Source: an uncultured SAR116 cluster alpha proteobacterium (GTDB lineage: Bacteria; Pseudomonadota; Alphaproteobacteria; Puniceispirillales; GCA-002684695). From it: 64,000 nt of DNA. Within the stretch, counting starts at the first letter, position 1. Every line of letters begins with the position of its first letter. The DNA lies in the NCBI GenBank assembly GCA_902539295.1, contig CACBIM010000004.1, positions 12,504 to 76,503 of the forward strand, given 5' to 3'. A model generated the notes under the pieces. It was given only the letters and a program-made list of their open reading frames with translations. It did not search any database and was not told the origin of the DNA. Both the position numbers and the translations under genes were made by a program. Shown here piece by piece: positions 22,305-55,266 of this stretch.

Positions 22305-22315
22305 GTAAAACCAAA

Positions 22316-24295: not shown

Positions 24296-24331
24296 CTAAA
24301 ATTATTACTTGTTAATTTATCGTCATATTTA

Positions 24332-40570: not shown

Positions 40571-40640
40571 GTGGGCACGACAAGGTTCGAACTTGTGCCC
40601 TCCCTCTACTATGTCAATGTTGTAGTATACCATATAATTC
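40571..40640 (-). pseudogene. Decayed tRNA-Val 3' fragment (old att scar)
   Basis: GTGGGCACGACAAGGTTCGAACTTGTG (40571-40597) is identical to the acceptor/T-arm of the tRNA-Val at 55192. The following ~40 nt align only loosely (CTAC-TATGTCAATGT-TGTAGT against CTAC-GATGTCAACGT-AGT). Confidence 0.75.
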
Positions 40641-40902: not shown

Positions 40903-40977
<75 letters not shown>

Positions 40978-41051
40978 CTCAAGCATTTCTGCCATTCCTA
41001 AAATTTATAACATACTTAAATAACTATGAAAAGACGTGTTTTTGAGCATTA

Positions 41052-41075
41052 GTGTGACTGAATTGTGACTGAATT
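41052..41075 (+). repeat. Tandem GTGACTGAATT motif; arm-type site candidate (int-distal end)
   Basis: GTGTGACTGAATTGTGACTGAATT. The first 20 nt match 55126-55145 at 19 of 20 positions. Confidence 0.7.
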
Positions 41076-41179
41076 AATTTTTCAAAAAAAATAAAGAATT
41101 TTAAAGTCATCAAATTGCCACTTTTATAAACAAAATCAAATCTATAAACATAATTCAAGGTTAATATATAAAATAACTT

Positions 41180-41908: not shown

Positions 41909-42003
41909 TTTTTTATCTATTTACCAAATACCACCAGTAAAAATAGTGAGACAAATATTGATATCAATTTAGTGATCTAAATTTCAAACACTAATTTCAA
42001 TAA

Positions 42004-43269
42004 TCACCAACCTAAAAATGATTTTGATTTAGTCATCATTAAAAGCCATCTATCATCGTGGCCATCGTGAAAAAAAGCATAAAATATCTGTGGTATATTA
42101 GCATATAAAAACAAATATCCTAAAGGTATGATTATTATATTTACAATAGAACCCAACTCATTATTAAAAAAACTTGGACTAAAAATCATCAATGAAAAAT
42201 TTTCAAAAATATTTAAATTTGATAAAAAGAGATACAGCGCAGCATATATAAACATCCACAAAATTAATTTTACAAAAGCGAGATTTCTTTCTCTTTTGGT
42301 GTACCCATATGTATAATGAGATTTAGAATTAATATTTAATTGTTTTGTTGTGAGATATATATTTTTAATTTCAAAAATTAAATATGGAGTCATTAACAAA
42401 ATAAATGTTAAAGGAAAAACTAAAAGAAGCACTTCAGAATAATAAATTTTAGGAAAAATTAATAAAGTTGATATACATAAAACTAACCCAAATAATAGAG
42501 AAAAGGGCCAGAAATTTGAATGAGTGTCATATGAAAAATTTTCATAGTCATCTAAACCAGAATATGGGTTTTGTGAAGGTACTAATTTATTAATCAAACC
42601 CAATAATAAAATGCTAGCTAATAATATAAATACCACTCCAATAGAAAATAGATAAATTACACTTGGGATTAAATAATATAATATAACTGGTAATATAAAA
42701 AATGAGACTAATATAATTCTTTTCTGTTTTTTGTTTAGACTGCCAGTTTTATAAGAGGAACTACTTTCATATGGTTTTTCCCCTTTTAAAATATTTGACA
42801 TACCATGAAAAGCCGCAATATGAGGGTTATTTTTTCTGAACTCTTCAGAAAATTGATTTCTTTCGATTGCTGATTGATATGCATACTTTTCAGCTCTTTT
42901 TATGATATCATCTTTTGCCTTTGATTCTGGATCTTTTTCGTCTAAATCAATTCCTAACTGCTTAGCTAGCGTATCTGCTAAGTTACAACCTTCATCTCTT
43001 GCCTCTCTCATCATGCGAAGGCCTAAATTTGTATCTTTAGCGTATAAGTCACCTGTATAAAGGTGAACACCTTTTGAAAATTTTCCATCTACGCTTCCAT
43101 ATTTTACAGCTATATCAAGAAATTCTCTAGCAACATCTCTATCTTGAGGCATGTTTGTGCCGGGGTCTGTTGAACAGGTAAAAACACGAAAAGCGGACTC
43201 GGCATTTCCTTCTTTGCCTTCTTTCTTATACCTTTCAAACATTTCAAAAGTTACATTAGAAACAACCAT
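42004..43269 (-). CDS. Hypothetical membrane protein with N-terminal Sel1-like repeat domain
   Basis: 421 aa. The soluble N-terminal ~190 aa has Sel1-like units (..AREFLDIAVKYGSVDGKFSKGVHLYTGD..). The C-terminal half has about 6 TM helices. Confidence 0.5.
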   Translation of the reverse strand: MVVSNVTFEMFERYKKEGKEGNAESAFRVFTCSTDPGTNMPQDRDVAREFLDIAVKYGSVDGKFSKGVHLYTGDLYAKDTNLGLRMMREARDEGCNLADTLAKQLGIDLDEKDPESKAKDDIIKRAEKYAYQSAIERNQFSEEFRKNNPHIAAFHGMSNILKGEKPYESSSSYKTGSLNKKQKRIILVSFFILPVILYYLIPSVIYLFSIGVVFILLASILLLGLINKLVPSQNPYSGLDDYENFSYDTHSNFWPFSLLFGLVLCISTLLIFPKIYYSEVLLLVFPLTFILLMTPYLIFEIKNIYLTTKQLNINSKSHYTYGYTKRERNLAFVKLILWMFIYAALYLFLSNLNIFENFSLMIFSPSFFNNELGSIVNIIIIPLGYLFLYANIPQIFYAFFHDGHDDRWLLMMTKSKSFLGW

Positions 43270-43413
43270 CTTTTACCTTCAAATTAAACAGTATATATAA
43301 ATATTATTTCTGTCTATTACCCATAATTATATCAAATTATATATTATATAAAGATTTAGTTAACTATATTTAATTTCTTTTACCAAATAGCACTTTAAAA
43401 TTTATAAATTACG

Positions 43414-43836
43414 TTAGAGAGCGTTAAAGGTTGTTATATCTAGATTATGCCTTACATAATCACAGACTGATCTTACCATGACTTCTATTGTTGTTTTTTT
43501 TTCAGTATAATGCCATTTTTCTGGTGGCTTAATTTCAAGAGCAATTCCTTTACCCATTGGCTCTTTGTGAAAAGACATATTCAAATCCTTGTAGCGAAAT
43601 AATTTACAATCTATTTGATGGAATACTTTTGAAGAGAAATATTGATTTTCTAATGGCTTCAAAAAATCTGTTACAGCCCAAAAAAAAACGAAATCATCCA
43701 CCTTTTTAATATTATCTAAATCGACATAAGTATTACCTGCTTTGTTTGTAACTACTTCAGTCCATTCTGCTAAGGAATTTTGATGGGGAATTAGGATTGA
43801 TAAAATTAAAAATAATAATAGAAAATTTCTATTCAT
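43414..43836 (-). CDS. Small exported protein (adhesin-E-like pattern, tentative)
   Basis: The ORF-track start at 43848 is TTG. The ATG at 43836 gives the signal peptide MNRNFLLLFLILSILIPHQNSLA. The mature part, ..WTEVVTNKAGNTYVDLDNIKKVDDFVFFW.., resembles surface-adhesin-E/DUF-type small beta proteins, by recollection only. Confidence 0.45.
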   Translation of the reverse strand: MNRNFLLLFLILSILIPHQNSLAEWTEVVTNKAGNTYVDLDNIKKVDDFVFFWAVTDFLKPLENQYFSSKVFHQIDCKLFRYKDLNMSFHKEPMGKGIALEIKPPEKWHYTEKKTTIEVMVRSVCDYVRHNLDITTFNAL

Positions 43837-43841
43837 ATTTA

Positions 43842-43931
43842 TTACCAAATAGCACTAATAAATAATAGTGAGATAAAGCTTAGAACTACAACAATAGAAA
43901 TGATAATGAGCCAGTAGGTTTTTTCGTTCAT
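43842..43931 (-). CDS. 29-aa single-TM peptide ORF (below ORF-track cutoff)
   Basis: Hand translation gives MNEKTYWLIIISIVVVLSFISLLFISAIW*. The ATG lies 1 nt after the stop of the upstream 132-aa ORF (TAAAATG). A paralogous sequence is found at 41921-41975. Confidence 0.35.
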   Translation of the reverse strand: MNEKTYWLIIISIVVVLSFISLLFISAIW

Positions 43932-43932
43932 T

Positions 43933-44331
43933 TTATTTTCTTAAATCAACTCTATCCTTCTCTTCTAACCAATCATCACCATCTATATTAATGATCTTTC
44001 CTCCAACAGAAATATATCCTCTTTCATATCCAACAAATGTTCTTGGTAAAACATTTGGATCTTCAGCAGTGCAGATAACCATAAAAGAATTACATCCTGA
44101 TTTAATCTGATCAACATGCCTTAATCTTTCTCTGTAGCCTGGATGACTTTGATTATTGATAAACTTTTCTTTGTGTGTCACACGATAAAAGTGCTTATCA
44201 TAAATGATAGCTAATTCATCTTTCCAAACACGCAGATAAATCTCACCTTTTGAGCTCTCAGCTCCCCATGACCATCTTTTATTTTTTAGTGGAGCGCCTA
44301 ATGAAGCAAATAAATTTGTTATGTTCTGCAT
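43933..44331 (-). CDS. Hypothetical cytoplasmic protein
   Basis: 132 aa (..KNKRWSWGAESSKGEIYLRVWKDE..). No signal peptide and no confident family. Confidence 0.45.
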   Translation of the reverse strand: MQNITNLFASLGAPLKNKRWSWGAESSKGEIYLRVWKDELAIIYDKHFYRVTHKEKFINNQSHPGYRERLRHVDQIKSGCNSFMVICTAEDPNVLPRTFVGYERGYISVGGKIINIDGDDWLEEKDRVDLRK

Positions 44332-44392
44332 TTTATTATTCTTCTAAAGAATAATCATAAAAAGTTATTTAAACAATCAAACAAATATTTTC

Positions 44393-46051
44393 TCAATAAA
44401 ATATTTGCAAATCGCGACTTAAATAAAAGCTATGGACTAAATCATTTATTCGTTCATCAATTAAAAAAGCCTGCCATTGGTTGATAGTAACGTAAGGATC
44501 AATTTTATGATACATAACTGAAGTTGAATATAAATAATCAAGCCAAAGTTCATGAACTTCATTAAATTCTTTTAAAGTAATTCTTGCTTCAGGGGGTAGC
44601 ATAATAAGTTTTTGGTTTTTGCCATCAAAAATATTGTTCGAGATTGTCTCAAACAGAACTTTTAAAATCATTTCTTTTGTTTCATGATCATATTCTCTAT
44701 AAAAATCTTTTTTCCCTGAAAGAAGTATTTCTATTCTATTAGTATATTGTTCTTTATGTTTCATAATTGATTTTGCAACCCAAGCACCATAACCAGTCCC
44801 ATAATGACTCTCTTCATTGATTGCTTTTTTATTAAAATATCTTTCAGCTTTTTCATAAGCTTCAACAATATATCGATGAATTATATAATCTGTTTCATAC
44901 CTAAAAGATTCTATCTTGTTGCTATTTTCATTATTGAATTTATCACTATCTCTTCCCGCACAGATAGTCGCCCCTAAACCACTTGTTACTACTTCACATA
45001 TATTAAAATGCATCGGTTTATTAGACTTCCATAATTTAAGGGTGTTTTCATATGCAGTTTCAATTGCAGTTTTAGAACCTCCCCCCATACAAATTAGTTG
45101 AAGAACAAGTTTATTATCATATTTACCTTCAAATTTTTTATTTGCGGCATCCTCAGCTAAATACCAATAAAAAAAAGGATCATAAGATTTTGGAATATTA
45201 ACTTTATTTTGAATTAAGAAGTTTTCTGTATCTAAAGGTTCTATTGTGGAACATTTATCATAAGTATCAAAAGTTATCTCTTTCCATTTCTTGATCCAGT
45301 CAGGAAAATCATTTGCATTTCCATAATGATAATTATTAATAGGTTTTTTCTCTGAAATAATTTCATGCTCTAATTTAAACTTTTCAGCAAGATCAGCCTG
45401 AAGAGTTACTTCAACAAATTTTGATTGTTTTGGATCAAATTCAACAAATACTTGAGTAGGATTATTCAATTGACCAACCCTTCTAAATTCAGCAATTCCA
45501 TTTTGATTTACATCACACCAAATGTTCCCTAATTCACCACTACTATCGTGATAACCAATGACTTCTTTTTTACCTACTGAAAGAAATGCTCCTTCACTTG
45601 AACTTAAATTACCTCCAAAATAACTAGATATGTAAATATCTCCGATACCGTCACCATCAAAATCAGCTTGCTTATTTTGTGTGTCACAATAGAAAAATCC
45701 TAGACCTAATTCAGAGTTTGACCACGAATTTGTTGTAAGAGGCTTTTCTTTCAAGAGCTTATAATCTTTTTTGTTATCACCCTCCTTATCGCCTATATAA
45801 TCAAACTCACTATTTTTATATAACCAGTCTTGATCCATAAAATTCTTTATCCAACTTGGTGCACCTAATACGTAGAAATCTGTCTCAGAGCCGCAGTTTT
45901 CAAATAGATAATATTGGTCATTTCCCATCCAACTTGATGTATATTCACTTACCCTTTCGGGGTCATATAGAGAACAGTCTATTTTTGTATTTGCAAATGA
46001 GGCTTTTAACGAAATAAAAGCAACTAGAAAATAAAATAATATTTTTATCAC
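44393..46051 (-). CDS. Large exported hypothetical protein with FG-GAP/VCBS-like segments
   Basis: 552 aa. Signal peptide MIKILFYFLVAFISLKASFA. DFDGDGIGDIYISSYFGG and CDVNQNGIAEF resemble FG-GAP calcium-binding loops. Confidence 0.5.
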   Translation of the reverse strand: MIKILFYFLVAFISLKASFANTKIDCSLYDPERVSEYTSSWMGNDQYYLFENCGSETDFYVLGAPSWIKNFMDQDWLYKNSEFDYIGDKEGDNKKDYKLLKEKPLTTNSWSNSELGLGFFYCDTQNKQADFDGDGIGDIYISSYFGGNLSSSEGAFLSVGKKEVIGYHDSSGELGNIWCDVNQNGIAEFRRVGQLNNPTQVFVEFDPKQSKFVEVTLQADLAEKFKLEHEIISEKKPINNYHYGNANDFPDWIKKWKEITFDTYDKCSTIEPLDTENFLIQNKVNIPKSYDPFFYWYLAEDAANKKFEGKYDNKLVLQLICMGGGSKTAIETAYENTLKLWKSNKPMHFNICEVVTSGLGATICAGRDSDKFNNENSNKIESFRYETDYIIHRYIVEAYEKAERYFNKKAINEESHYGTGYGAWVAKSIMKHKEQYTNRIEILLSGKKDFYREYDHETKEMILKVLFETISNNIFDGKNQKLIMLPPEARITLKEFNEVHELWLDYLYSTSVMYHKIDPYVTINQWQAFLIDERINDLVHSFYLSRDLQIFY

Positions 46052-46177
46052 ATAAACATTAATTAATAAATTTATGGCAAAAGTTTGGCTGAATTTGAGA
46101 AACTATCAAAGTAGATTAATATATGTTATCTTTTTTATTTTTACTAAATTTTTTTAAAGTTTAGGAAGGAGGTTATT

Positions 46178-47179
46178 TTGAAAAAACCTGAAACAATTAT
46201 TAAAAAACTTACTAAAGATTTTTCAACTGATGGCAATTTGAAAAAGTCAATGCAATTGGTTACTGCCGCTCTATGTTGTGTTGATGGTATTGTTGACCAA
46301 GCTGAAATTGATAAAGTAAATGAATTAGGAAAAAAATTTTTTAAAGACAAATACGATAAAAATGAATTTGAAACTTTAGTAAAAGGCTTTCTTTCCACAA
46401 TTGATTTTTCCTCAGAAAATGAAGAAATAGTTTCACAAAGAGAAAAAATAATTAATGTTACTGCAACAATAATGAAACAGTATGCTAAAAATAGCCTTGA
46501 TGACAAAATTGCGTATTATTCATTTCTATCAGAAGTTGCTCTTTCAGATGGAGAAATTCACGAAAAAGAATTAGACTTTTTAAATTTAGTTTCAGAATAT
46601 CTTGAAATAGAAGATCCTTTTGATCTAAAGAGCATTGCTTCAAATAAAAGCAACCCAAACAAAGTAATTTCAAGCATTCAAATTGAATCAGATGAAGCAA
46701 GGAATAATTCATCACAAGCTATTGGTATGTTAGCCAAGATGTTGACTGATTCTATGATACATAGTGGGCAAGTGCCTAAAGCAAGAGAAAGGGACTGTTT
46801 AAGAGTTGCTATAATGTCGATAGCAAAACACCCTACTCTTTCTGCAGATTTAGTGAGCAATGATGAAAGAAAAAGGGTTGCAGCATGCTTATTTTTTATG
46901 AGCGAAATTGAAAAGGAACTTGGACTTGGTCAACCAGGATCTCAATTCAGCTCGACAGTATATGCAGACACAAATGAGGAATTAGTGAAAAAGAAAAGGG
47001 CTGTAAATATTTATGCATCTTTAGGTCTGTTATGCATTTCTGGATTTCTTGGATCATTCGGATATGCAATATACCAATTTTTTACAAATGGTAATTTTTT
47101 AATCTGGATAATCATTGGTGTTATATTGTGGTTTTTACAAAGGTGGGTTGGTTCTAAACATGACGCTTTAACTGGATAA
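46178..47179 (+). CDS. TerB-like domain protein with C-terminal membrane anchor
   Basis: 333 aa. Two segments (..CCVDGIVDQAEIDKVNELG.. and ..ALSDGEIHEKELDFLNLV..) fit the TerB/DjlA-N DGxxxxxE pattern. The C-terminus has 2 TM helices. Confidence 0.5.
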   Translation: MKKPETIIKKLTKDFSTDGNLKKSMQLVTAALCCVDGIVDQAEIDKVNELGKKFFKDKYDKNEFETLVKGFLSTIDFSSENEEIVSQREKIINVTATIMKQYAKNSLDDKIAYYSFLSEVALSDGEIHEKELDFLNLVSEYLEIEDPFDLKSIASNKSNPNKVISSIQIESDEARNNSSQAIGMLAKMLTDSMIHSGQVPKARERDCLRVAIMSIAKHPTLSADLVSNDERKRVAACLFFMSEIEKELGLGQPGSQFSSTVYADTNEELVKKKRAVNIYASLGLLCISGFLGSFGYAIYQFFTNGNFLIWIIIGVILWFLQRWVGSKHDALTG

Positions 47180-47185
47180 AATTCT

Positions 47186-47446
47186 GTGGGATTAATATTT
47201 GTAATCTTAGAAGTTGCAATTGAAGCTGCAATAATTGTTACCGTTTCTCTAAGTTTAAGTAACAATTCATTTTGGATACATTCTTTGATTTGCGTAATCA
47301 TTTGTATTGTTAGTGGAATTTTAGGTTTATACAGAAACGAAGATAGAATGATGCCTGGTTCAGGAAACAGAAGATATTTTATGACTTTGGGTCACGCAAC
47401 AATATGGGCTTACTTTATTGGAATAATTATAATGTTTGCTTTTTAA
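47186..47446 (+). CDS. Small membrane protein
   Basis: 86 aa, GTG start 7 nt after the upstream stop, about 3 TM helices. Confidence 0.4.
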   Translation: MGLIFVILEVAIEAAIIVTVSLSLSNNSFWIHSLICVIICIVSGILGLYRNEDRMMPGSGNRRYFMTLGHATIWAYFIGIIIMFAF

Positions 47447-47468
47447 TTAATTTGGAGATTTATTGTAA

Positions 47469-48080
47469 TTATTTTGAGCTTAAGAAAACATACATTGGAA
47501 GAGTTAATATCATATTGCTAAATTCAAACTCACTATTTTTTTTTAAATCTTTAGCTATAAATCCAAATCCCATATTTATAGTTCTTAAAATAAGTAGATC
47601 TTTATCTAAAATATCATCAATATTTTGAGAAGAGGCTAACCTTTCAGTTAAATTAGATTTCCATGTAATTCTATCCATTTCATCATATCCAGTAAAACCC
47701 TCAGTCTTTATACCTTCTCCACTAAATTTTATAAACCTATTAGGTTTTATTAAATTTGAAATAGGAGTTATTCGGCTACCTCCTGTTTTCATTTTAACTA
47801 AATCATGTAAAAAAAGACTAGGTGTATTATTATTTCCTAAATCAATCCTAAAAGTTTGACCTGAAGGTCCTATTTCATTTTGATTCCAGCCTTCTTCATT
47901 AACCAAACATTCTTCTATATTTTTATAAGATAAAGTACTGATATCAAAGTTAGGGTTATCATTTTCTAGTTTACTCTGGGTACTAGATAAAGAAGAAAAA
48001 ATTGATTTTCTATAAAAAATCAATAATAATATAATACCTAAAATGAACCATTGCCAAATTCCAAATACACCTCCTGACAT
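47469..48080 (-). CDS. Hypothetical membrane-anchored protein
   Basis: 203 aa with an N-terminal TM helix (GIWQWFILGIILLLIFY) and no recognisable domain. Confidence 0.45.
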   Translation of the reverse strand: MSGGVFGIWQWFILGIILLLIFYRKSIFSSLSSTQSKLENDNPNFDISTLSYKNIEECLVNEEGWNQNEIGPSGQTFRIDLGNNNTPSLFLHDLVKMKTGGSRITPISNLIKPNRFIKFSGEGIKTEGFTGYDEMDRITWKSNLTERLASSQNIDDILDKDLLILRTINMGFGFIAKDLKKNSEFEFSNMILTLPMYVFLSSK

Positions 48081-48176
48081 AATTCTTCACCTCTTTTATA
48101 ATTATATAATTAGATCTTAAATTTACCATAAAATACAAAATTAACAATTTATTAATAACGGGTTATAATAAGTTAT

Positions 48177-48365
48177 ATGAGAAAATTTTCTATTGGCAAA
48201 ACTCGATCAACTTTATATAAGTCAGCTAAAATTCTTGGTGATATTAATGCCGTGAAAAGAGGTACTGTAGGCAGGCGATTAACTTATCGTTTTTCAGGTA
48301 AAATTAGTGCTAGAATTCTTTCAAAACTAATAAGAACAATTTCTAAGATTTTCAAACTAAATTAG
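48177..48365 (+). CDS. Small highly basic protein
   Basis: 62 aa, K/R-rich (..YKSAKILGDINAVKRGTVGRRLTYRFSGK..). The pattern recalls small basic ORFs common in phage and mobile-element genomes. TATAAT lies about 10 nt upstream of the ATG. Confidence 0.45.
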   Translation: MRKFSIGKTRSTLYKSAKILGDINAVKRGTVGRRLTYRFSGKISARILSKLIRTISKIFKLN

Positions 48366-48474
48366 TATATTGACTGTTCAATATTTGTTTTAAAATTTAA
48401 TTTCTTATCCATAAAAGTAATGTAATTGCATATTGACTAGTCTATTTAAGATATTGATTTTATTGTATTTATTA

Positions 48475-48503
48475 TTGACATTAGCAATTTAATTCTATAT
48501 ATT
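48475..48503 (+). promoter_or_regulatory. Near-consensus sigma-70 type promoter facing the GC-rich ORF-free block
   Basis: TTGACA (48475-48480), a 17-nt spacer, then TATATT (48498-48503). Confidence 0.5.
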
Positions 48504-48599
48504 TATATGTATTATTTAATCAAAAAATTATTGCTTCAATATGAAAAAATATAGGCACTGGAGCTCATAAGTATGCGATTATATAATTAGATAAATGGT

Positions 48600-48990
48600 T
48601 GTAAATGAGAGTTGCAGATAGTGCTTATTAAGCGCTTGGGAGTAACGTTTGATCTCAACTGAGTAAATTGTCAACTCTGAGGATAAATACTCTAAAGACT
48701 TTGCGAGTAGGCTCTGTTTAGCAACAACCTACGGATAGCTGACAGTCGCTAGTATGGCTTGTCAGTGGTTCTGCGTTAAGAGGCAGCGCGTAATAGGGAG
48801 ACAGCTTAACCGCCCCTAACCTTCATGGTGACGCTATACTAGATGAAATGACTGAAGGAATGACTCTGAAGGTCAGATCATGCTTAGCCTGCGAAAGGCT
48901 AAGTGTGCCTGCAGTACTTATAATCGTTGGAATGGATGAAATTCCTTCAGAAATTCACTAAAGGTCAGTTTGTATTGTCAACTAGTAATA
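48600..48990 (+). ncRNA. Candidate structured non-coding RNA of unknown class
   Basis: Stops in all six frames. By hand count 48601-48960 is ~44% G+C (157/360) against 13-22% in 48421-48540. Several helices include an 11-bp hairpin at 48879-48907 with a GCGAA-containing loop. The G.U pairs favour the + strand. Boundaries and strand are approximate. Confidence 0.55.
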
Positions 48991-49017
48991 ACAAACTTCC
49001 TAACTTAAATTGAGCAA

Positions 49018-49629
49018 TTAACTTAACCAATGAGAAATAAACTTAGCTATTTTCTCACCGCCTTGATGAGATGGTTCTATAGAATTTGCATAGTCATTCT
49101 TTTCAGTAAAAAGTGCTCTTAATTCTAAAACATCAAAGCCTTTTTTTAGAACAAGTCGTTGAATAATATCATTAAAAATATTTACCGTAACCTCGCATGC
49201 TTCCTGGTATGGTGACATAAAATTTGTATCATCATAATAATGGAAAGCAGGATTATAGATGGTAAAACAAAGAGCTGGTGACTGAATTTTATTGAGAAGG
49301 TTTTCATAATCTTTTTCAAAACTTTCAATTACAGGTTTAAGAGTTTTCATGACCTGATTAAAAGTCATTTTTGCATCGCCCTGAATCATTCCAGAACTCT
49401 TAAGTAGATTGTTACCTCCTGCACTAAGGGCAATTGGACTGCCTTTTGTTAAATCTCCTAACTGTAAATTAATTACATCTTCAATGACTGAACCATCAAT
49501 AGCTCTTTTCTCTATTGACCAGTCAGGAAGCATTGTCTTTAAATGCTTTTCAACTGGAAGATCTGTTCCACGGACATATGGGTTGTTATCTATAATACTG
49601 TCACCAAGGAGAATAAGATGGTTATTCAT
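49018..49629 (-). CDS. SGNH/GDSL-family hydrolase
   Basis: 203 aa with block I LILLGDSIIDN (catalytic Ser in GDS), a ..SAGGNN.. block, and a C-terminal ..SHQGG.. segment. Confidence 0.65.
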   Translation of the reverse strand: MNNHLILLGDSIIDNNPYVRGTDLPVEKHLKTMLPDWSIEKRAIDGSVIEDVINLQLGDLTKGSPIALSAGGNNLLKSSGMIQGDAKMTFNQVMKTLKPVIESFEKDYENLLNKIQSPALCFTIYNPAFHYYDDTNFMSPYQEACEVTVNIFNDIIQRLVLKKGFDVLELRALFTEKNDYANSIEPSHQGGEKIAKFISHWLS

Positions 49630-49910
49630 AAAAAAAATCCTTTCAAAATTAACGTTGAAAAAATCCTGCTAAATTGATCAGCAGAACAAAATTGTTTTAA
49701 TTGTTTGAGAGCTCAAAAAGCACATTAGTGCTCTTGTAAAATAAATGAATATTAGAAAACTATTATCCCCTGAAATATACTTTTAATATATTTTTGAGTG
49801 TTTTTGAGCATATGAAATCTATGCAAAAATTGTTCCTAATTGATCCTCAAAATGACCATTACTTAGCTAATCAATAACCGTTAGATAACCGTTAGATAGC
49901 TAATAAATTT

Positions 49911-50903
49911 CTATTCTAAATAACTAATTTTAGGTTGTATTTTACTTTGTAACATTAATAGTAATTCTTCACTTTTTTCAGAAAATTTAAATTCTTTTTT
50001 TTCTTTGAAGTGCTTTTCAAAAGCTTTGTGAGTTAACATTGAGGCAATAATTCCACACACTATACCCATCCAAACAGGCCCACCTATGATAGCAGCTGTA
50101 CTTACAAAAGCAGTCGTCTTAGCCCCTCCCCTTAGTACTCCAGATATTTTAGCATTTGATTTTTTTTGCAGTATTTTTCTGTGATGCTGACAAGCAAGTG
50201 TAATAACAGTAATGACAAGGCATAAAGGATTTGCTGCTATAATTGAAGTTAAACCTATAGTAGTGATGAAATCATAAAATTCTTTTTCGTCTTTCTCATT
50301 CCACTGAAGTGCACTAGAAATTAAAACAAGTAAGCCACCAATACTTTCAGATGCTGTAAATGAAACTATGTCCTTTAACCAACTTTCCTGAATTCCCAAA
50401 TAAGATGCATATTTTTCAACATACTCAAAATTATTTCTATCTAAAGTCATTATAGGCATGCCCATTGGAGTTACTAAATCTTTCCAGTATGCCGAGAGAT
50501 ATCCAATTACCTCTTGTGATTTTGTGTCATCTGGGAGTGCTGATTTTACCGCTTCCCATGCGCCCAAAATACCATGACCTCCATCAAATAACCTGTGATC
50601 ACCTCCAAATTCACCTGACAATTGTCGTGTGTAGTCCATGGATCTGTCATAAACAGTAGAAGCTGAGTCAAAAGTAGACCTTAAATATCTATCAATTTGA
50701 ATAGAAGCATCACTAGCTAGAATATAATTAAAATAACGTGAAACAGAACTTACTGATGGTTTGTATTGATCTTTTATCTGAAAATGGAATTTATGTGCTT
50801 GGTTTTTAATAAATTTTGGCGTGATCAATAATGACTGATTTAAATATTGAATAGCTTTTAAAGAATGAAGTTTTTCATATATTTTTTTTGTTATATTAAT
50901 CAT
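49911..50903 (-). CDS. Hypothetical membrane protein
   Basis: 330 aa. Soluble N-terminal ~180 aa (..GEFGGDHRLFDGGHGILGAWEA..) followed by 3-4 TM helices. Separated by a 2-nt gap from the upstream 205-aa ORF. Confidence 0.45.
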   Translation of the reverse strand: MINITKKIYEKLHSLKAIQYLNQSLLITPKFIKNQAHKFHFQIKDQYKPSVSSVSRYFNYILASDASIQIDRYLRSTFDSASTVYDRSMDYTRQLSGEFGGDHRLFDGGHGILGAWEAVKSALPDDTKSQEVIGYLSAYWKDLVTPMGMPIMTLDRNNFEYVEKYASYLGIQESWLKDIVSFTASESIGGLLVLISSALQWNEKDEKEFYDFITTIGLTSIIAANPLCLVITVITLACQHHRKILQKKSNAKISGVLRGGAKTTAFVSTAAIIGGPVWMGIVCGIIASMLTHKAFEKHFKEKKEFKFSEKSEELLLMLQSKIQPKISYLE

Positions 50904-50905
50904 AT

Positions 50906-51523
50906 TTACTTAACATCATACATTTGACCATGCCATTCAAAGCTATCAAATTCATAATATTTAATAAATTCATTTGCTTCTTCTAACGTTAAATAATTTT
51001 TGAACCAAGGTGATGGATATTCATGTGTGTCCCCGATGAAAATCTCTTTCAAATATAAAGTGTTATAATCTCTATCGACAAAATATATTGTTTCAATTTT
51101 TGAAGCTAAAGCACCAGGGCCACTATAAACATGAATATGTAAATGAATTTTATATGCATCAACAACCTTATTTCCTATTGGTTCATAAAAATATTCGTTT
51201 TTTTCTACAAGAACGCCGGTGACGTATGAAAAAGCAGGCCAACAATGCACTATACTCTCCCCCTTATAAGAGGCGTACATACCTTCAAATTGTGGAATGC
51301 CAAAACTTACTGTCTCAAGAAAAATTTCCTCTGTCCCGTTTCTTCTGAATATAGGTACATAAAAACCTTCTTCATCATCAATAACAATTGAAGATGGTAC
51401 TACCTCACGTTCAAGCATAAACACCTGGCATTGGTCAGTAATATAGTACTCTGATGCTAAGGTTTGAGTTGAAAAAATCACAGACAATATTATTAATAAT
51501 TTTTGTTTCATACTCTTTTTCAA
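50906..51523 (-). CDS. Hypothetical exported protein
   Basis: 205 aa with signal peptide MKKSMKQKLLIILSVIFSTQTLA. Confidence 0.45.
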   Translation of the reverse strand: MKKSMKQKLLIILSVIFSTQTLASEYYITDQCQVFMLEREVVPSSIVIDDEEGFYVPIFRRNGTEEIFLETVSFGIPQFEGMYASYKGESIVHCWPAFSYVTGVLVEKNEYFYEPIGNKVVDAYKIHLHIHVYSGPGALASKIETIYFVDRDYNTLYLKEIFIGDTHEYPSPWFKNYLTLEEANEFIKYYEFDSFEWHGQMYDVK

Positions 51524-51572
51524 ACCTCAGTAATTTCATTATAACTATTAGAAATCAAATATAGTATAATTA

Positions 51573-52136
51573 ATGATGAATTTACTTAAATATAAATATG
51601 CACTTACAGGTACACTGTTAGCTTTGGGTAATCTCTATCTCTCTTATCTTTTTCGTTATGATTTAGTTCCTTTAAAGCTTCCATTTACATTAGTAGAAAA
51701 TTTACTTTTCCTAGATAACCCTATCTATAACTATGGAGGCTTTTTTATCGATGGATCAGAACCTACTCTAAAAAGATTACCAACTGTTCTTATATTAATT
51801 TATCTTTGCTACATTCTTTACAAATACCTTTTAAAAAAGAATACAAGACTCCAAAACATTTTTGCGATTTTACTATTAGGAGGGGTTGGAGGATTAACAC
51901 TTGATATTCTCTCGTATGGCAATGTGTGTGACTGGATAGGGTTTATGATACCTGGTGGTCGTTATTATTCCATGTTGAATATTTCAGATCTAATGATTTT
52001 AATTTCAGCACCTTTTGCATCTCTTTTATGTATTAAGAATATTTTTCTCAAATTAATGGCGTTTTCATTTTCAATAATAGTAATAAGTGCAAATAGCTAT
52101 TATCACTTTGTAACAATTTACAAAATGCTATTTTAA
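51573..52136 (+). CDS. Divergent lipoprotein signal peptidase (LspA/SPase II)-like membrane protein
   Basis: 187 aa, 4 TM helices. By eye it aligns to E. coli LspA blocks: ..NYGGFF.. with NYGAAFSF, LLLGGVGGLTLDIL with IIGGALGNLFDRL, and MLNISDLMI with TFNLADTAI. Both catalytic Asp positions appear to be retained. Confidence 0.5.
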   Translation: MMNLLKYKYALTGTLLALGNLYLSYLFRYDLVPLKLPFTLVENLLFLDNPIYNYGGFFIDGSEPTLKRLPTVLILIYLCYILYKYLLKKNTRLQNIFAILLLGGVGGLTLDILSYGNVCDWIGFMIPGGRYYSMLNISDLMILISAPFASLLCIKNIFLKLMAFSFSIIVISANSYYHFVTIYKMLF

Positions 52137-52179
52137 TATTGTCTTTTTTTAAACAAATTTGAGATTTACGATTTTTTTT

Positions 52180-52641
52180 ATGAAAATTAATTTATTTTTT
52201 ATAAGTTTATTTATTTTATTTTTTTCAAATGCTTTAGCAAAAGAAAAATTCAAACCAATCTCAGAAATCGTAATGAATGTAAATGAAATAAATGATATTA
52301 AACAAGTTGAAGATATTCTAAACAGATGTATTGCGGTAAACTTTTTTATTTTTGAGAGTAGATTTTCAAATGATATAGAACTTGAAGAACAGTCTATTTT
52401 AATGGCTAGAAAATATTTTGGAATGATGAAAAGCCACATTGAAAGTCAAGGTATAGTTTTTGATAAAACTTTTGTTGATCGTGAAGAGTTTAATCCAACT
52501 TATGTTTATTATAATCTCAAAAATGAATTAGAAAATGATACTAATGAATTTATAAAGCTAATTCAAAATGATGCATTAACTTGTGCATTTTATCTTCAAA
52601 TATTAGATGACATAGAAAGAGGAAAAGCTGGTGCTTCTTAA
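52180..52641 (+). CDS. Hypothetical exported protein
   Basis: The ORF-track start at 52159 is TTG. The ATG at 52180 gives the signal peptide MKINLFFISLFILFFSNALA. Confidence 0.45.
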   Translation: MKINLFFISLFILFFSNALAKEKFKPISEIVMNVNEINDIKQVEDILNRCIAVNFFIFESRFSNDIELEEQSILMARKYFGMMKSHIESQGIVFDKTFVDREEFNPTYVYYNLKNELENDTNEFIKLIQNDALTCAFYLQILDDIERGKAGAS

Positions 52642-52703
52642 AGAAGTCTCTAAAATTAAATTTAGTAGTAAACTAGTTTTTTATTAAAAGGTAAAATAAT
52701 AGT

Positions 52704-53339
52704 ATGTCTTTTTTATTCACTATTTTTGCTTTACTATATTCTTTATTTTATATTCCTACACTATTTTTACTTTTATATTTAAATATTATACCATCTTTTT
52801 TTTATGCTTTATTAGGTTTGTTTAGATTAAGAAATTTTAAAAAAACATTTTTTTCAAAAATAAGGGAATTTGAACAAAAAGATAGGGGCTTTTTTGAAAC
52901 ATCAATTTTTATAATAATTACTCATATAATATTTTTAATTTTATTTCACCCAACTATTCATGGAATACACAATTTTGATAAAGAATTGATACTAATAAAT
53001 TTTTTTGTTGCAGTAATTGTTCACTTAAATCTTACATTATTAGCCCTACCATTTCTTTGTCAAAATCATCATATAGCACGATTACATTTTATTAATTTTT
53101 TTATAGTAATGCTTTTTACTCCAATCGAAATTGAATGGTTTAAAACTACTTTATATATTCCAGACCTTAGTTTTTTGTTTGTTAGTTCAGATTTAATAAA
53201 TTCAATTTGTTTCTTCATAACACTTATATTTTTATCTATTTCTTTATTTAAGAGAAATTATTTTAAATATTTTTTTAGAATAATAGTTAAGGGTGAAGAT
53301 ATTATTAATGATGAGTTGAGATTGGGAAGGAAATACTAA
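52704..53339 (+). CDS. Hypothetical polytopic membrane protein
   Basis: 211 aa, about 6 TM helices, extremely Phe/Ile/Leu-rich. Confidence 0.4.
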   Translation: MSFLFTIFALLYSLFYIPTLFLLLYLNIIPSFFYALLGLFRLRNFKKTFFSKIREFEQKDRGFFETSIFIIITHIIFLILFHPTIHGIHNFDKELILINFFVAVIVHLNLTLLALPFLCQNHHIARLHFINFFIVMLFTPIEIEWFKTTLYIPDLSFLFVSSDLINSICFFITLIFLSISLFKRNYFKYFFRIIVKGEDIINDELRLGRKY

Positions 53340-53644
53340 AGAATTATAAAATTACAAAAGTGAAAAAGGAATTAAACAGACTTAGTAAAAAGAAAAATAA
53401 GTTTTAAAAATTTAATACTTTTGTTTACCTGGAATAACTCCTCTTACACCACCTCTTGGATTTGTAAGAACCTCAGAGTTTAAATCACCCGAGCACTGTG
53501 ATTATTTTGCAAACCGACTAAACAGACATAATCCAATTATTAATAAGTACGGTAAGCTTACGAAAATGAAAGCTTACTGCAACCATGAAAACAATCCTAC
53601 CACAGATCCACTTTAAAAACCTACCCATCATATTGGAGAACATC

Positions 53645-53998
53645 TTAAGAAAACCAACTAAAAAACCCTTTTTTCTTTTTTTCTTTTTTTACAGCAGCAT
53701 TCATCATCTTATCTTTAGTTATTTTTACTAGAGTTGCAGGATCGTCTGATTGCAAAATCTCAAACAACAACATTTTAGCGGCTTCTTTACTGCTAGGATT
53801 TGGATTATGATATGTAAATGCACTGCATAACTCATAAACAAACATACTATCTTCAAAATCAAGAGTTCTTAAGATAGAAGATATTTCCATAGCGTCTTGA
53901 ACAGTAATTTTACCCTCAATCACCAACTCTCCACTTAATGCGCCAACAGCTTCGCCAGCTTTAGTTAATCCATCAACAATTTTTTTTCCATCATTCAT
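53645..53998 (-). CDS. Hypothetical protein with Lys-rich tail
   Basis: 117 aa, helical, ending ..AAVKKEKKKKGFFSWFS. The first gene downstream of the integrase. Confidence 0.4.
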   Translation of the reverse strand: MNDGKKIVDGLTKAGEAVGALSGELVIEGKITVQDAMEISSILRTLDFEDSMFVYELCSAFTYHNPNPSSKEAAKMLLFEILQSDDPATLVKITKDKMMNAAVKKEKKKKGFFSWFS

Positions 53999-54122
53999 AT
54001 ATTATTTCCAAAGTTATATAAATTAAAACAAACCAAAAAACCTTTTCTTTTATTTTTTACATAGAAAGTAAAATTTCTACTATCCCAACCAGTGATCTCT
54101 TCTGCATTGGAAGCTAATTTTT

Positions 54123-55112
54123 TCATGGAATGCCTCCACTGCTCATAACAGATCGTACACGATCAAGCTGCCCATGTGAATACCTCATCAACATCGAAAG
54201 TGTCCTGTGTCCACTAAGCATTGCAACTTCGGGAACAGTCAGCCCCATTTCGAAAAATGATGATATTGCCTCATGGCGCAGATCATGGAAACGAACATTC
54301 TTCAAACCTGCTTTAAGTCTGATACGATCAAAGGCAAGTCGAACTGCATTGGAAGAAAGTGTAAACAACCTCCCCTCACCTTCGTTATGCAAGACAGACA
54401 ATTTTGAATAAAGATCATTAGCAATCGGTAAAGAGCGATAGTGACCATTCTTTGTTTTGTGGACTGTAAATACTTTATTTTTAAGGTCGATATCTTTCCA
54501 TTCAAGAGAGAGGATTTCACTGCGCCTGAGAGCAGTTCTCAATGCAATTAAAACAATCAAATAAATATCTTTTCTTCCCGTTTTAAGACACGTAGAGAGA
54601 AGTCTTTCTTGTTGTTTGGCCTGTAATCTTCTGATTGCTTTGAGCGGTTTTAACGGAATCCTGACGCGTTCCAGAAGTCCTTCTGGCACGTCCCAATCCC
54701 ACTCTCTTTTCGCAATATTAAGAGCATGCCTTAATACAAAAAACTGACGGTGAAGAGAAGATGGTTTGACAACTTTCAATCGTTCATCACGATAATGAGC
54801 AATATCTTGAACTGATAATTGTTCAAGTGATTTTTTTACCCAAACAAGCCTCAAAAAAGCTTTAACAACCCATCCGTCAGGATGGCCTTTTTCTTTTTTT
54901 GAAATAACGCAATTTTGATATTTTGTTAAAACCTCAGCTAAACTTTTTGGTTTGTATTTAAATAGAGGATTATCTTCTTTTAAAATGCGGGCTTCCTGCA
55001 TACATGCCCAGTGACGTGCTGATTGATGTGTCAAAAATGATTTTGAGAGAGACTGGTCTTTCAGGCGAATCTGTACCTGGTAGAGTTTATTTCGATAGCG
55101 TATTGATGCCAT
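54123..55112 (-). CDS. int: Tyrosine-type site-specific integrase
   Basis: 329 aa. C-terminal catalytic pattern ..ALRTALRRSEIL.. (Arg), ..HDLRHEAISSF.. (H-x-x-R) and ..GHRTLSMLMRYSH (His..Tyr). It lies directly next to the tRNA-Val 3' end. Confidence 0.9.
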   Translation of the reverse strand: MASIRYRNKLYQVQIRLKDQSLSKSFLTHQSARHWACMQEARILKEDNPLFKYKPKSLAEVLTKYQNCVISKKEKGHPDGWVVKAFLRLVWVKKSLEQLSVQDIAHYRDERLKVVKPSSLHRQFFVLRHALNIAKREWDWDVPEGLLERVRIPLKPLKAIRRLQAKQQERLLSTCLKTGRKDIYLIVLIALRTALRRSEILSLEWKDIDLKNKVFTVHKTKNGHYRSLPIANDLYSKLSVLHNEGEGRLFTLSSNAVRLAFDRIRLKAGLKNVRFHDLRHEAISSFFEMGLTVPEVAMLSGHRTLSMLMRYSHGQLDRVRSVMSSGGIP

Positions 55113-55125
55113 ACGTACACCTCCT

Positions 55126-55146
55126 GTGTGACTGATTTGTGACTGG
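55126..55146 (+). repeat. Tandem GTGACTG motif; arm-type site candidate (int-proximal end, in the int 5' region)
   Basis: GTGTGACTGATTTGTGACTGG lies 14 nt upstream of the int start codon and 45 nt from the tRNA. It matches 41052-41071 at 19 of 20 positions. Confidence 0.7.
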
Positions 55147-55191
55147 CGTTATGCTGGAGATGTTGTGATGCTCGCTATCCCTTATGGGATA

Positions 55192-55266
<75 letters not shown>

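What the first reader, a model, noticed from the sequence alone, without database searches (positions are those of the whole stretch)
48590..48990. GC-rich, ORF-free block inside the island: candidate structured RNA of unknown class
No ORF of 60 aa or more exists on either strand across 48366-49017, and hand translation hits stops in all six frames. Despite that, 48601-48960 is about 44% G+C (157/360 by hand count) while the adjacent 48421-48540 is 13-22%. In very AT-rich genomes, a GC-rich intergenic block like this is the classic footprint of a structured RNA.

Several helices can be drawn:
- 48620-48636, 7 bp with one G.U pair.
- CTGACA/TGTCAG at 48739-48744 / 48760-48765, extendable with G.U pairs.
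- TAGGG/CCCTA at 48794-48798 / 48814-48818.
- CCTTCA/TGAAGG at 48820-48825 / 48853-48858.
- TCTGAAGG/CCTTCAGA at 48865-48872 / 48944-48951.
- An 11-bp hairpin at 48879-48907 (CATGCTTAGCC-TGCGAAA-GGCTAAGTGTG) with two adjacent G.U pairs.

The G.U pairs would be A.C mismatches on the other strand, so the + strand is favoured. A TTGACA-17-TATATT promoter (48475-48503) points into the block. Two tandem ATGACT(CT)GAAGG modules (48848-48872) and two CCTTCA partners allow mutually exclusive pairings.

No reverse transcriptase, IscB/TnpB or IS110-type recombinase is adjacent, so the retron, omega-RNA and bridge-RNA contexts do not fit. I could not match it to any RNA family I know.
Basis: partly seen in the sequence, partly recalled or inferred. 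Interest (0 to 1): 0.75.

Follow-up and report, generated by a model that had tools for sequence, protein, structure and literature searches.

The report
New integrase-linked structured RNA family
The GC-rich gene-free block is a real gene for a roughly 375-base folded, non-coding RNA of a family in no RNA catalogue; in other marine bacteria it sits just behind the integrase and excision-regulator genes of small mobile DNA elements, which makes it a candidate new RNA player in how such elements are controlled.

Summary
Window 48594-48967 (+) has no ORF and is 43% G+C in a 31.5% G+C genome. It matches none of the 4227 Rfam 15 families.

I collected about 12 independent relatives from marine metagenomes (33-53% G+C contigs). 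All are full length, 72-99% identical.

Fifteen helices, one of them a pseudoknot, are 90% paired across the alignment, against 31-42% when the partners are slid. Thirty-five pairs carry compensatory changes. G.U pairs outnumber A.C 65 to 8, which favours the + strand. Variable sites show no codon periodicity. The RNA is more conserved than the neighbouring protein gene at every divergence level.

In relatives the RNA lies directly downstream, on the same strand, of a tyrosine integrase plus a small AlpA-type or other DNA-binding gene. One such element is at tRNA-Val(GAC), like the window's island. The window copy has lost these partners.

A 12-nt motif occurs twice (48864-75, 48956-67) and evolves in concert. 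Both copies complement one strand (48849-53).

Best reading: a new regulatory RNA of integrative elements, possibly an RNA switch laid out like the P4 immunity region. The function is inferred, not shown.

The parts
48594..48967 (+). RNA gene: the conserved extent of the family, about 374 nt and 43% G+C
   Evidence: nhmmer and MAFFT matches in all relatives run from AAAUGG to AAAGGUCA and stop there. Against L001, L004 and L002 the RNA is 99.5, 93.0 and 86.0% identical. The adjacent GDSL gene is 95.8, 86.9 and 71.1% identical, and the flanking spacers 61-90%.
48582..48587 (+). TATAAT box, 7 nt upstream of the conserved 5' end; candidate -10 element of the RNA's own promoter
   Evidence: The block GCGAT(T/A)ATATAATTAGA is conserved in the window, L001, L004 and L002. 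The -35 is weak. No transcript data are available, so this is inferred.
48475..48503 (+).
   Evidence: 11/12 match. The -10 differs in L001, and such matches are not enriched over shuffles. It is probably not the RNA's promoter.
48597..48660 (+). P1: 48597-601 pairs with 48656-60, closing the 5' domain
   Evidence: 100% of cells paired; 2 of 5 pairs have changes on both sides (helix 1).
48611..48646 (+). P2: 48611-15 pairs with 48642-46
   Evidence: 98% paired; 3 pairs have changes on both sides (helix 2).
48620..48636 (+).
   Evidence: A hairpin forms at this place in all 12 lineages, with a different sequence in each. The MAFFT columns are misaligned here, so one search counts only 61%.
48661..48677 (+). 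P4: GAGU/ACUC
   Evidence: 100% paired. The pair varies as GAGU/ACUC, GGGC/GCCC and GGGU/ACCC (helix 4).
48707..48732 (+). P6 (48707-11/48728-32) and P6b (48715-18/48723-26)
   Evidence: 100% paired; 2 and 3 pairs respectively have changes on both sides. P6b is deleted in L015.
48733..48772 (+).
   Evidence: 100% paired. CUGAC/GUCAG varies to CCAAC/GUUGG, CCGGU/GCCGG and CUGGC/GCCAG (helices 7 and 8).
48749..48842 (+). PK1, a pseudoknot: the P7 loop 48749-55 pairs with 48836-42
   Evidence: 99% paired; 5 of 7 pairs have changes on both sides (helix 9). RNAalifold found it independently.
48785..48835 (+). Long-range helix Hy: 48785-88 pairs with 48832-35, adjacent on the 3' strand to PK1 (stacking inferred)
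   Evidence: 97% paired; 2 pairs have changes on both sides (helix 10).
48794..48829 (+).
   Evidence: P9 is 97% paired with 2 compensatory pairs. The P10 stem is invariant and its loop varies in length and sequence.
48767..48815 (+). Most conserved primary-sequence core (GGUUCUGCGUUAAGAGGCAGCGCGUAAUAGGGAGAC...)
   Evidence: Invariant in the first five sequences and nearly invariant across all 15, from hosts of 33-53% G+C. A 20-mer from it retrieved 7 metagenome contigs.
48850..48874 (+). P11 hairpin: P11a 48850-53/48871-74 and P11c 48857-59/48865-67
   Evidence: P11a is 92% paired with 2 pairs changed on both sides. P11c is 87% paired (helices 13 and 14).
48879..48907 (+).
   Evidence: A hairpin of 8-12 bp forms at this place in all 12 lineages. 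Wobble pairs change to Watson-Crick pairs, and the loops are variable, several GNRA-like (e.g. GCGA, GAGA, GAAA).
48864..48875 (+). Repeat motif copy 1 (CUCUGAAGGUCA), which includes the 3' strand of P11a
   Evidence: It changes in parallel with copy 2 at 6 positions across the lineages; 0 of 5000 permutations reach the observed agreement.
48956..48967 (+). Repeat motif copy 2 (CACUAAAGGUCA), at the 3' end of the conserved RNA
   Evidence: Each RNA holds exactly two copies, with almost none in the flanks. It can pair with 48849-53 as an alternative to copy 1 (85% paired).
40903..55266 (-). Context: about 14 kb island bounded by two full tRNA-Val(GAC) genes (40903-40977, 55192-55266), with a tyrosine integrase at 54123-55112
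   Evidence: ARAGORN and Rfam, alignment of the two tRNA copies, Pfam Phage_integrase at 3e-27. A third, 27-nt copy of the tRNA 3' part lies at 40571-40597.

Best explanation
SHOWN. Window 48594-48967 (+) encodes a non-coding RNA of about 375 nt from a family that is not in Rfam. Its fold has at least 15 helices, including a pseudoknot (PK1), and is conserved across marine bacteria of very different base composition.

SHOWN. In relatives the gene sits immediately downstream of, and on the same strand as, the recombination module of small tRNA-integrating elements. That module is a tyrosine integrase plus an AlpA-type or other small DNA-binding protein whose stop codon abuts or overlaps the RNA's 5' end. 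In some lineages a DUF5681 / small-terminase-like gene follows the RNA.

The window copy lies inside a tRNA-Val island. It has lost its integrase/AlpA partners but remains under purifying selection.

INFERRED, the mechanism I commit to. The RNA is a regulatory RNA of the element. It is transcribed from its own promoter, or as the tail of the integrase/AlpA transcript. Its output depends on a three-part complementary set:
- one strand, 48849-53;
- two co-evolving identical partner motifs, 48864-75 and 48956-67.

The strand can pair with either motif. One choice gives the local P11 hairpin, the other a long-range helix to the 3' end. This would set expression of what lies downstream, or the element's state. 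The layout and logic resemble the immunity region that follows the AlpA-like vis gene in satellite phage P4, where the CI/C4 RNA has duplicated targets.

The large invariant pseudoknotted core suggests an additional, unknown ligand or protein partner.
For: Existence and structure:
- No ORF is present.
- Variable sites fall 27/26/27 over the three codon phases (p = 0.997), and core lengths are 169-176 nt.
- 90.3% of cells are paired against 31-42% when slid. 35 pairs have changes on both sides against 1-9 when slid. 0 of 500 shuffles reach the observed values.
- G.U outnumbers A.C 65 to 8.
- Hairpins P3 and P12 are kept with different sequences in all 12 lineages.
- The RNA is more conserved than the adjacent coding gene at three divergence levels.

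Not a known family:
- No Rfam 15 hit at E<=10, 5 or 1 in the window and 12 loci.
- ARAGORN finds no tmRNA.

Context:
- L005 and L011: int, then alpA, then the RNA.
- L002: alpA, then the RNA.
- L017: tRNA-Val(GAC), int, a 132-aa gene, a small protein, then the RNA.
- L019-22 and L018: int, a 186-aa gene, a small protein, then the RNA.
- L013: an integrase-like gene, then the RNA.
- L010 and L024: the RNA, then a DUF5681-like gene with an RBS 27-45 nt downstream.

Three-part set:
- The two motifs change in parallel (0 of 5000 permutations).
- Both complement the same strand: 92% and 85% paired, with the same compensatory changes.
- There are exactly two copies per RNA.

P4 layout:
- The AlpA-like ORF88/vis gene is followed on the same strand by c4-a1b1/isrK and then the C4 (CI) RNA.
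- Marine satellites with integrase, AlpA and small terminase are reported in Pelagibacter (PMC9618062).
Against: - No transcript data exist, so the ends, the strand of expression and any processing are inferred.
- The RNA travels with at least three unrelated integrase lineages and two unrelated small-protein families. This argues against a specific RNP with any one of them.
- The downstream gene is convergent or unrelated in several lineages: the window, L002 and L018. A pure cis-leader role therefore cannot be general.
- No terminator or RBS-sequestering element is conserved after motif 2.
- In L018 the shared partner strand is poorly complementary, yet the two motifs still match each other. 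A common trans partner could explain the concerted evolution instead.
- The P4 C4, isrK and c4-a1b1 models do not match, and the RNA is four times larger than the CI RNA.
- Only about 12 lineages are available. The shuffle controls do not remove phylogenetic signal.
- No family member was found in IMG/VR, phage or plasmid collections.
Confidence: 0.45

Rival explanations
1. RNA cofactor of recombination. The RNA forms a complex with the integrase or the directionality factor. The two identical motifs recognise or mimic a repeated nucleic-acid site, such as the att core. This would be loosely analogous to bridge RNAs of IS110 elements.
For: The RNA is tightly linked, on the same strand, to tyrosine integrases in at least 6 lineages. 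Two motifs share an identical 7-9 nt core that changes in concert, as the two halves of a recombination site must. L018 keeps the two motifs identical without a good internal partner.
Against: Tyrosine integrases are not known to need RNA (established knowledge). The RNA is associated with unrelated integrase lineages, 23-29% identical or undetectable. It is maintained in the window lineage without any cognate integrase or AlpA. The motif or its complement is absent from the flanks that were available. The att sites themselves could not be examined.
Confidence: 0.12
2. Purely cis-acting transcript element. It would be a structured 3' UTR that stabilises or terminates the integrase/AlpA mRNA, or a 5' leader (antiterminator or translational control) of the DUF5681-type genes downstream.
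For: The stop codon of the upstream small gene abuts or overlaps the RNA's 5' end. In L010 and L024 an RBS and start codon follow 27-45 nt after the 3' motif.
Against: 375 nt with a pseudoknot and an invariant 50-nt core is far beyond what UTR stabilisers need. The downstream gene differs or converges in most lineages. The window lineage keeps the RNA with neither partner and with its own TATAAT box.
Confidence: 0.15
3. Single-stranded DNA element, for example an origin of transfer or a single-strand initiation site of a mobilisable island, rather than an RNA.
For: It is a non-coding, strand-specific, conserved fold in a mobile element next to an integrase. STAXI is an Rfam-listed motif; its integrase association and possible single-stranded-DNA function are from my own knowledge of Rfam and the literature, not tested here.
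Against: There are many short (3-7 bp) helices and a pseudoknot. G.U pairs are conserved, for example invariant G.U at columns 11/82 and 156/195; these are typical of RNA and weak in DNA. A -10 box sits at the right distance. No relaxase, replication or transfer genes were seen in any locus.
Confidence: 0.07
4. Ribozyme, self-cleaving or self-processing. The duplicated motif would mark two alternative reaction or processing sites.
For: Size, the pseudoknot and the very strong primary-sequence conservation of the core resemble catalytic RNAs. Conservation ends exactly at motif 2. There are weak local resemblances to RNase P RNA conserved regions.
Against: No match to any ribozyme model in Rfam. 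The RNase P-like CUAGAUGAAAUGACUG stretch is not conserved in the family. The alignment score is reached by 1-16 of 300 shuffles. No P4/CR-I equivalent is present.
Confidence: 0.07
5. Decayed or unrecognised protein-coding gene. One candidate is the antisense strand, where many relatives have an open frame of 50-150 codons that gene callers annotate.
For: 44 clusters of 'hypothetical proteins' in public databases are translations of the antisense strand. That frame is open for about 75 codons in L001, L004, L005 and L010.
Against: Variable sites are spread evenly over codon phases (27/26/27). Indels are not multiples of 3, and the frame is broken in the window, L002/L006 and L003. The window has no start codon giving 20 aa or more in 48675-48964. 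The substitutions are base-pair compensating. The proteins tested had no Pfam hits; database listings show '-'.
Confidence: 0.02

Closest known systems
int-alpA RNA motif (Rfam; listed among Rfam families in PMC12370729)
   Same: A conserved non-coding structure found next to integrase and alpA genes of prophage-like elements, of unknown function. In L005, L011 and L002 this RNA directly follows alpA.
   Different: No match to that or any Rfam model, even at E<=10. This RNA is large (about 375 nt, 15 helices, one pseudoknot). It also occurs behind non-AlpA small proteins. I could not inspect the int-alpA model itself, so differences in size and structure are not measured.
P4 immunity region: C4/CI antisense RNA with its duplicated targets (Rfam C4 RF01695, c4-a1b1 RF03163, isrK RF01394)
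   Same: It lies immediately downstream of an AlpA-family excisionase/regulator (P4 ORF88/vis) on the same strand, in an integrative satellite. According to the literature on P4 and P1 immunity, which is my own knowledge, it relies on one sequence complementary to two copies of a target that co-vary.
   Different: These models do not match. The CI RNA is about 80-90 nt against 375 nt here. The order of the elements differs: here it is strand, copy 1, copy 2. No terminator or RBS target has been identified. The large invariant pseudoknotted core has no counterpart.
Guide or scaffold RNAs of mobile elements (IS110 bridge RNA; IscB/TnpB omega/reRNA, i.e. the HEARO and IS605-orfB motifs)
   Same: A structured non-coding RNA encoded beside the element's recombinase or nuclease. 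There are two internal motifs that co-vary.
   Different: The neighbours are tyrosine integrases, not DEDD recombinases, TnpB or IscB. There is no Rfam HEARO or IS605-orfB hit. The RNA is not tied to one integrase lineage.
Bacterial RNase P RNA (E. coli M1)
   Same: Similar size. Two short local matches: CUAGAUGAAAUGACUG against M1 325-340, and UGCGUUAAGAGGCAGCGCG against M1 185-205.
   Different: The Rfam RNase P models do not hit. The first match is not conserved within the family. The scores are within reach of shuffles. No CR-I/P4 helix is present.
Other orphan large bacterial RNAs (GOLLD, ROOL, OLE, raiA)
   Same: Large, intricately folded RNAs, often in prophage or mobile contexts, discovered by comparative genomics, with function unknown or only partly known.
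   Different: No model match. This RNA is restricted so far to uncultured marine bacteria: 0 hits in 185,579 GTDB species representatives for the invariant 20-mer, and none in the phage, plasmid or IMG/VR collections.

Membership tests
Conserved structured RNA (generic) | Base pairs maintained by compensatory substitutions across homologues | tested here: met
   35 of 76 pairs have changes on both sides. 90.3% of cells are paired against 31-42% when slid. 0 of 500 shuffles.
Conserved structured RNA (generic) | Strand asymmetry (G.U pairs rather than A.C) | tested here: met
   65 G.U cells against 8 A.C cells in the well-aligned helices.
Conserved structured RNA (generic) | Transcription of the predicted strand with defined ends | not testable with these tools
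   No transcriptome data are available. There is only a conserved TATAAT box 7 nt upstream.
Any Rfam 15 family (4227 models, including int-alpA, C4, isrK, RNase P, tmRNA, 6S, HEARO, GOLLD, ROOL, STAXI) | Covariance-model score at or above the gathering threshold | tested here: not met
   The window and 12 relatives give no hit at gathering, and nothing relevant at E<=10, 5 or 1.
int-alpA RNA motif | Location next to int and alpA genes | tested here: met
   Met in relatives L005, L011 and L002. Not met in the window itself, where tblastn finds no alpA.
P4/P1 C4-type immunity RNA | Antisense RNA whose loops complement two duplicated targets on the same transcript | tested here: inconclusive
   One strand complementary to two co-evolving motifs is present. 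The sequence, size and order differ, and the regulatory consequence is untested.
P4/P1 C4-type immunity RNA | Match to the C4, c4-a1b1 or isrK models, as P4 itself gives | tested here: not met
   P4 scores 74.9, 44.1 and 60.8 bits. This RNA scores none.
tmRNA (standard or two-piece) | tRNA-like domain and tag reading frame | tested here: not met
   ARAGORN finds only three tRNAs in the window. No Rfam tmRNA model hits.
RNase P RNA | Conserved regions CR-I to CR-V and the P4 helix; model match | tested here: not met
   No model hit. There are only two short local matches, one of them not conserved in the family.
Bridge RNA, omega RNA or retron ncRNA | Adjacent IS110-type recombinase, IscB/TnpB or reverse transcriptase | tested here: not met
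   Pfam on the neighbours in the window and in the loci shows none.
Protein-coding gene (either strand) | Open frame with a start codon, codon-phase bias of substitutions, indels in multiples of 3 | tested here: not met

The most novel reading that the evidence does not exclude
A new class of large, pseudoknotted bacterial RNA that is a working part of the site-specific recombination module of small marine integrative elements. It could be an RNA switch that sets excision or immunity state. It could instead be an RNA partner of the integrase or directionality factor, with its two co-evolving motifs reading a repeated nucleic-acid site. No RNA component is known for tyrosine-integrase elements apart from small antisense immunity RNAs.
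Probability: 0.3. Interest if true: 0.9.

Novelty: new variant of a known kind. Interest (0 to 1): 0.74.

Why it matters
Large, intricately folded bacterial RNAs are rare. Nearly every one whose function was solved turned out to do something sophisticated, such as catalysis, RNP guiding or global regulation.

This one is tied to the integrase/AlpA module of small elements that reshape the genomic islands of the most abundant ocean bacteria. The window's core genes recur, at 90% identity or more, on 1.0-1.24 Mb marine contigs.

If it controls excision, immunity or helper exploitation, it adds an RNA layer to how marine integrative elements and satellites work. Such elements include VEIMEs and tycheposon-like islands.

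It also has a practical consequence. At least 44 clusters of 'hypothetical proteins' in public databases are antisense translations of this RNA and should be re-annotated.

Tried and rejected
Searches that found nothing:
- Exact look-up of the two flanking window proteins.
- Relatives of the GDSL protein in 185,579 GTDB genomes.
- The invariant 20-mer in the same genomes.
- Four DNA patterns and one pseudo-protein profile in IMG/VR.
- blastn against the phage and plasmid collections.
- Literature searches for int-alpA, DUF5681, tycheposons and integrase-associated structured RNA turned up no description of this RNA.

Structural ideas dropped:
- A 5' hairpin UGGCU/AGCCA was replaced by P1 and P2, which covary better.
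- The hairpin CUGC/GCAG (48771-74/48783-86) is broken in L015 and conflicts with the covarying helix Hy.
- A loop-loop pairing GUUAAG/CUUAAC (48775-80/48805-10) has an A.C mismatch in 10 of 15 sequences. My first count was also off by one.
- RNAalifold's closing helix 48697-700/48963-66 is 72% paired and fails in exactly the lineages where the motif changed.
- Self-pairing of the two motifs.
- A consistent internal full-length partner for the motifs.
- Extra motif copies in the flanks.

Identity ideas dropped:
- tmRNA, including a tag-like frame ending in UAA UAG.
- RNase P.
- An antisense protein gene.

Not attempted:
- A covariance model of the full RNA. A 375-position model exceeds the calibration limit, and no further sequence collection could be searched with it.
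Full report
**1. Observation**

The block is as described.
- 48601-48960 is 157/360 = 43.6% G+C. The spacer 48421-48540 is 16.7%, and the window averages 31.5%.
- No ORF of 40 aa or more lies on either strand in 48366-49017.
- All quoted helices and the TTGACA-17-TATATT match are at the quoted coordinates.
- Taken alone, the + strand folds slightly better than shuffles (z = -2.0). The - strand does not (z = -0.84).
- Rfam 15 gives only three tRNAs in the whole window. Even at E<=10 it gives nothing meaningful in 48300-49100. ARAGORN finds no tmRNA.

**2. Homologues**

- A 37-aa spurious ORF inside the block led to metagenome contig L001.
- Homologues of the adjacent GDSL-like protein led to L002-L004.
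- An invariant 20-mer retrieved L005-L011 from JGI metagenomes (L009 is the same contig as L001), and nothing from 185,579 GTDB genomes.
- A profile of antisense pseudo-ORFs then retrieved 44 clusters of 'hypothetical proteins' that are translations of the same element. Their contigs gave L013-L024.
- nhmmer shows full-length matches in every contig long enough to hold one. These contigs range from 33% to 53% G+C.
- Conservation begins at AAAUGG (48594) and ends at AAAGGUCA (48967) in all lineages.
- No member was found in IMG/VR, INPHARED phages or PLSDB plasmids.

**3. It is a structured RNA, not a gene remnant**

On the 15-sequence alignment A8 I tested a structure of 76 pairs in 15 helices.
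- 90.3% of cells are paired, against 31-42% when the 3' partners are slid by 1-3 columns.
- 35 pairs have changes on both sides, against 1-9 when slid.
- 0 of 500 shuffles reach the observed pairing or covariation.
- Twelve helices (all but P3, P11c and P12) are 92-100% paired.

Three helices stand out.
- The P7 loop pairs with a distant strand (PK1, 48749-55/48836-42). Five of its seven pairs are compensated. This makes a pseudoknot, which RNAalifold also proposed.
- A further long-range helix (48785-88/48832-35) continues the same 3' strand.
- Hairpins P3 and P12 score lower only because MAFFT misaligns them. Folded one by one, every lineage has a hairpin there with its own sequence.

Other tests agree.
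- G.U pairs outnumber A.C 65 to 8, so the + strand is the folded one.
- Variable sites fall 27/26/27 on the three codon phases (p = 0.997). Core lengths are 169-176 nt. The antisense frame that gene callers like is broken in the window, L002/L006 and L003.
- Against L001, L004 and L002 the RNA is 99.5, 93.0 and 86.0% identical. The adjacent GDSL gene is 95.8, 86.9 and 71.1% identical, and the flanking spacers are 61-90%.

**4. Context**

In the window the RNA lies in an island of about 14 kb.
- The island is bounded by two complete tRNA-Val(GAC) genes, with a tyrosine integrase next to one of them. A third, 27-nt tRNA fragment lies nearby.
- The RNA is 5 kb from that integrase, on the other strand. 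It is flanked by an AT-rich spacer and a convergent GDSL-like gene.

Elsewhere the picture is uniform.
- L005 and L011: integrase, AlpA, RNA.
- L002: AlpA, RNA.
- L017: tRNA-Val(GAC), integrase, a 132-aa gene, a small protein, RNA.
- L018-L022: integrase, a 186-aa gene, a small protein, RNA.
- L013: an integrase-like gene, RNA.

In each case all genes are on one strand.

The small protein just upstream is either AlpA-type or belongs to an unannotated family of about 90 aa (G..VFPT..SLQWFIR). Its stop codon overlaps the RNA's 5' end in different frames.

In L010/L007 and L024 a DUF5681 / phrog small-terminase-like gene follows the RNA. In L015 it is divergent.

The associated integrases belong to at least three unrelated lineages. 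The window has no alpA or cognate integrase.

Marine virion-packaged integrative elements carrying tyrosine integrase, AlpA and small terminase have been described in Pelagibacter (PMC9618062). Neither that paper nor the tycheposon preprint mentions an RNA.

**5. A co-evolving triple**

A 12-nt motif occurs exactly twice in every RNA and almost never in the flanks.
- Copy 1 is CUCUGAAGGUCA (48864-75) and copy 2 is CACUAAAGGUCA (48956-67).
- The two copies change in parallel at six positions. GGUC becomes AGUC, GAUC or GUUC in both. A becomes U in both in L018. A becomes G in both in L010.
- 0 of 5000 permutations reach this agreement.

Copy 1 is the 3' strand of hairpin P11, whose 5' strand (48849-53) covaries with it. 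Copy 2 can form the same helix (85% paired). One strand therefore has two interchangeable partners, one of them at the very 3' end of the RNA.

No other consistent partner was found. In L018 the shared strand is a poor match, so a common external partner remains possible.

**6. Mechanism**

Shown: a new, conserved, pseudoknotted RNA gene linked to integrase/AlpA modules.

Inferred: it is a regulatory RNA of the element that uses the triple as a switch.

The nearest worked example is satellite P4. There the AlpA-family vis gene is followed on the same strand by the immunity region. That region holds one RNA sequence complementary to two co-varying targets. Rfam finds c4-a1b1/isrK and C4 there. 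None of these models matches this RNA.

The 50-nt invariant core and the pseudoknot imply a further partner. That partner could be a protein, a ligand or a catalytic site.

Rivals, with my probabilities:
- cis-only UTR or leader, 0.15;
- recombination cofactor, 0.12;
- single-stranded DNA element, 0.07;
- ribozyme, 0.07;
- coding remnant, 0.02.

**7. Novelty**

The kind is known: a conserved non-coding structure beside int and alpA, and an RNA-based control region after an AlpA-like gene. The family is not. No Rfam model detects it in 13 tested copies, and the searched literature does not describe it. It is also far larger and more intricate than the known examples.

I rate it a new variant of a known kind, with about a 30% chance that it is a categorically new functional class.

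**8. Verdict**

- Identity as a new structured RNA family: about 0.9.
- The proposed switch mechanism: about 0.3.
- Interest: 0.74.

Noticed in passing
window 40571-40597, 40903-40977, 55192-55266: There are two complete tRNA-Val(GAC) genes, differing by one base, plus a third 27-nt copy of the tRNA 3' part about 300 nt beyond the first. This is the footprint of repeated integration at one tRNA hotspot. L017 shows the same tRNA species used by an RNA-carrying element.
   Followed up: partly
public protein databases (clusters P0096-P0139); e.g. L005 1238-1534(-), L010 3835-4059(+): At least 44 clusters of 'hypothetical proteins' (52-168 aa, no Pfam hit) are translations of the antisense strand of this RNA, with the conserved string GAVERSPHYALPLNAEP. 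They are mis-annotations and served as a handle to find family members.
   Followed up: yes
L010 4136-4405(-), L017 about 1250-1600(-), L018 2135-2521(-), L019 about 760-1040(-), L024 about 3640-3910(-); paralogue at L010 3217-3465(-): An unannotated family of small proteins of about 80-110 aa (G..VFPT..SLQWFIR...L.P.F) sits directly upstream of the RNA in the higher-GC lineages, occupying the place AlpA has in the AT-rich ones. Its C-terminus overlaps the RNA's 5' end in different reading frames. It has no Pfam or NCBIfam hit.
   Followed up: partly
window 48177-48365 (+) and 48366-48593: A 62-aa ORF with no family hit and a very AT-rich spacer replace the alpA gene that precedes the RNA in L002. 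The spacer is the fastest-evolving part of the locus (76-90% identity in close relatives).
   Followed up: partly
window 48823-48824: The only two differences between the window RNA and contig L001 over 374 nt are adjacent (TC to AA). They fall in the variable loop of P10. They also create the single stop that breaks the antisense frame in the window.
   Followed up: yes
window 18800-25300: A run of coding sequence at 40-48% G+C, well above the 31.5% window average. It includes 781-aa and 659-aa ORFs and a TctC-type transporter subunit. I did not examine whether it is foreign or highly expressed.
   Followed up: no
L018 567-1835(+); L013 2768-5122(-); L010 2907-3263(+): The genes on the 3' side of the RNA differ in every lineage: an EcoRII-C restriction enzyme, a reprolysin-type metalloprotease, an IS3 OrfA fragment, and the GDSL esterase in the window. 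The RNA therefore sits at the border between a conserved module and variable cargo or host DNA.
   Followed up: partly
window-wide (e.g. 2261-3397, 8425-9552, 24332-25270): The window's proteins are on record from one NCBI contig of 134,216 nt. Members of their 90%-identity clusters occur on marine contigs of 1.0-1.24 Mb.
   Followed up: partly
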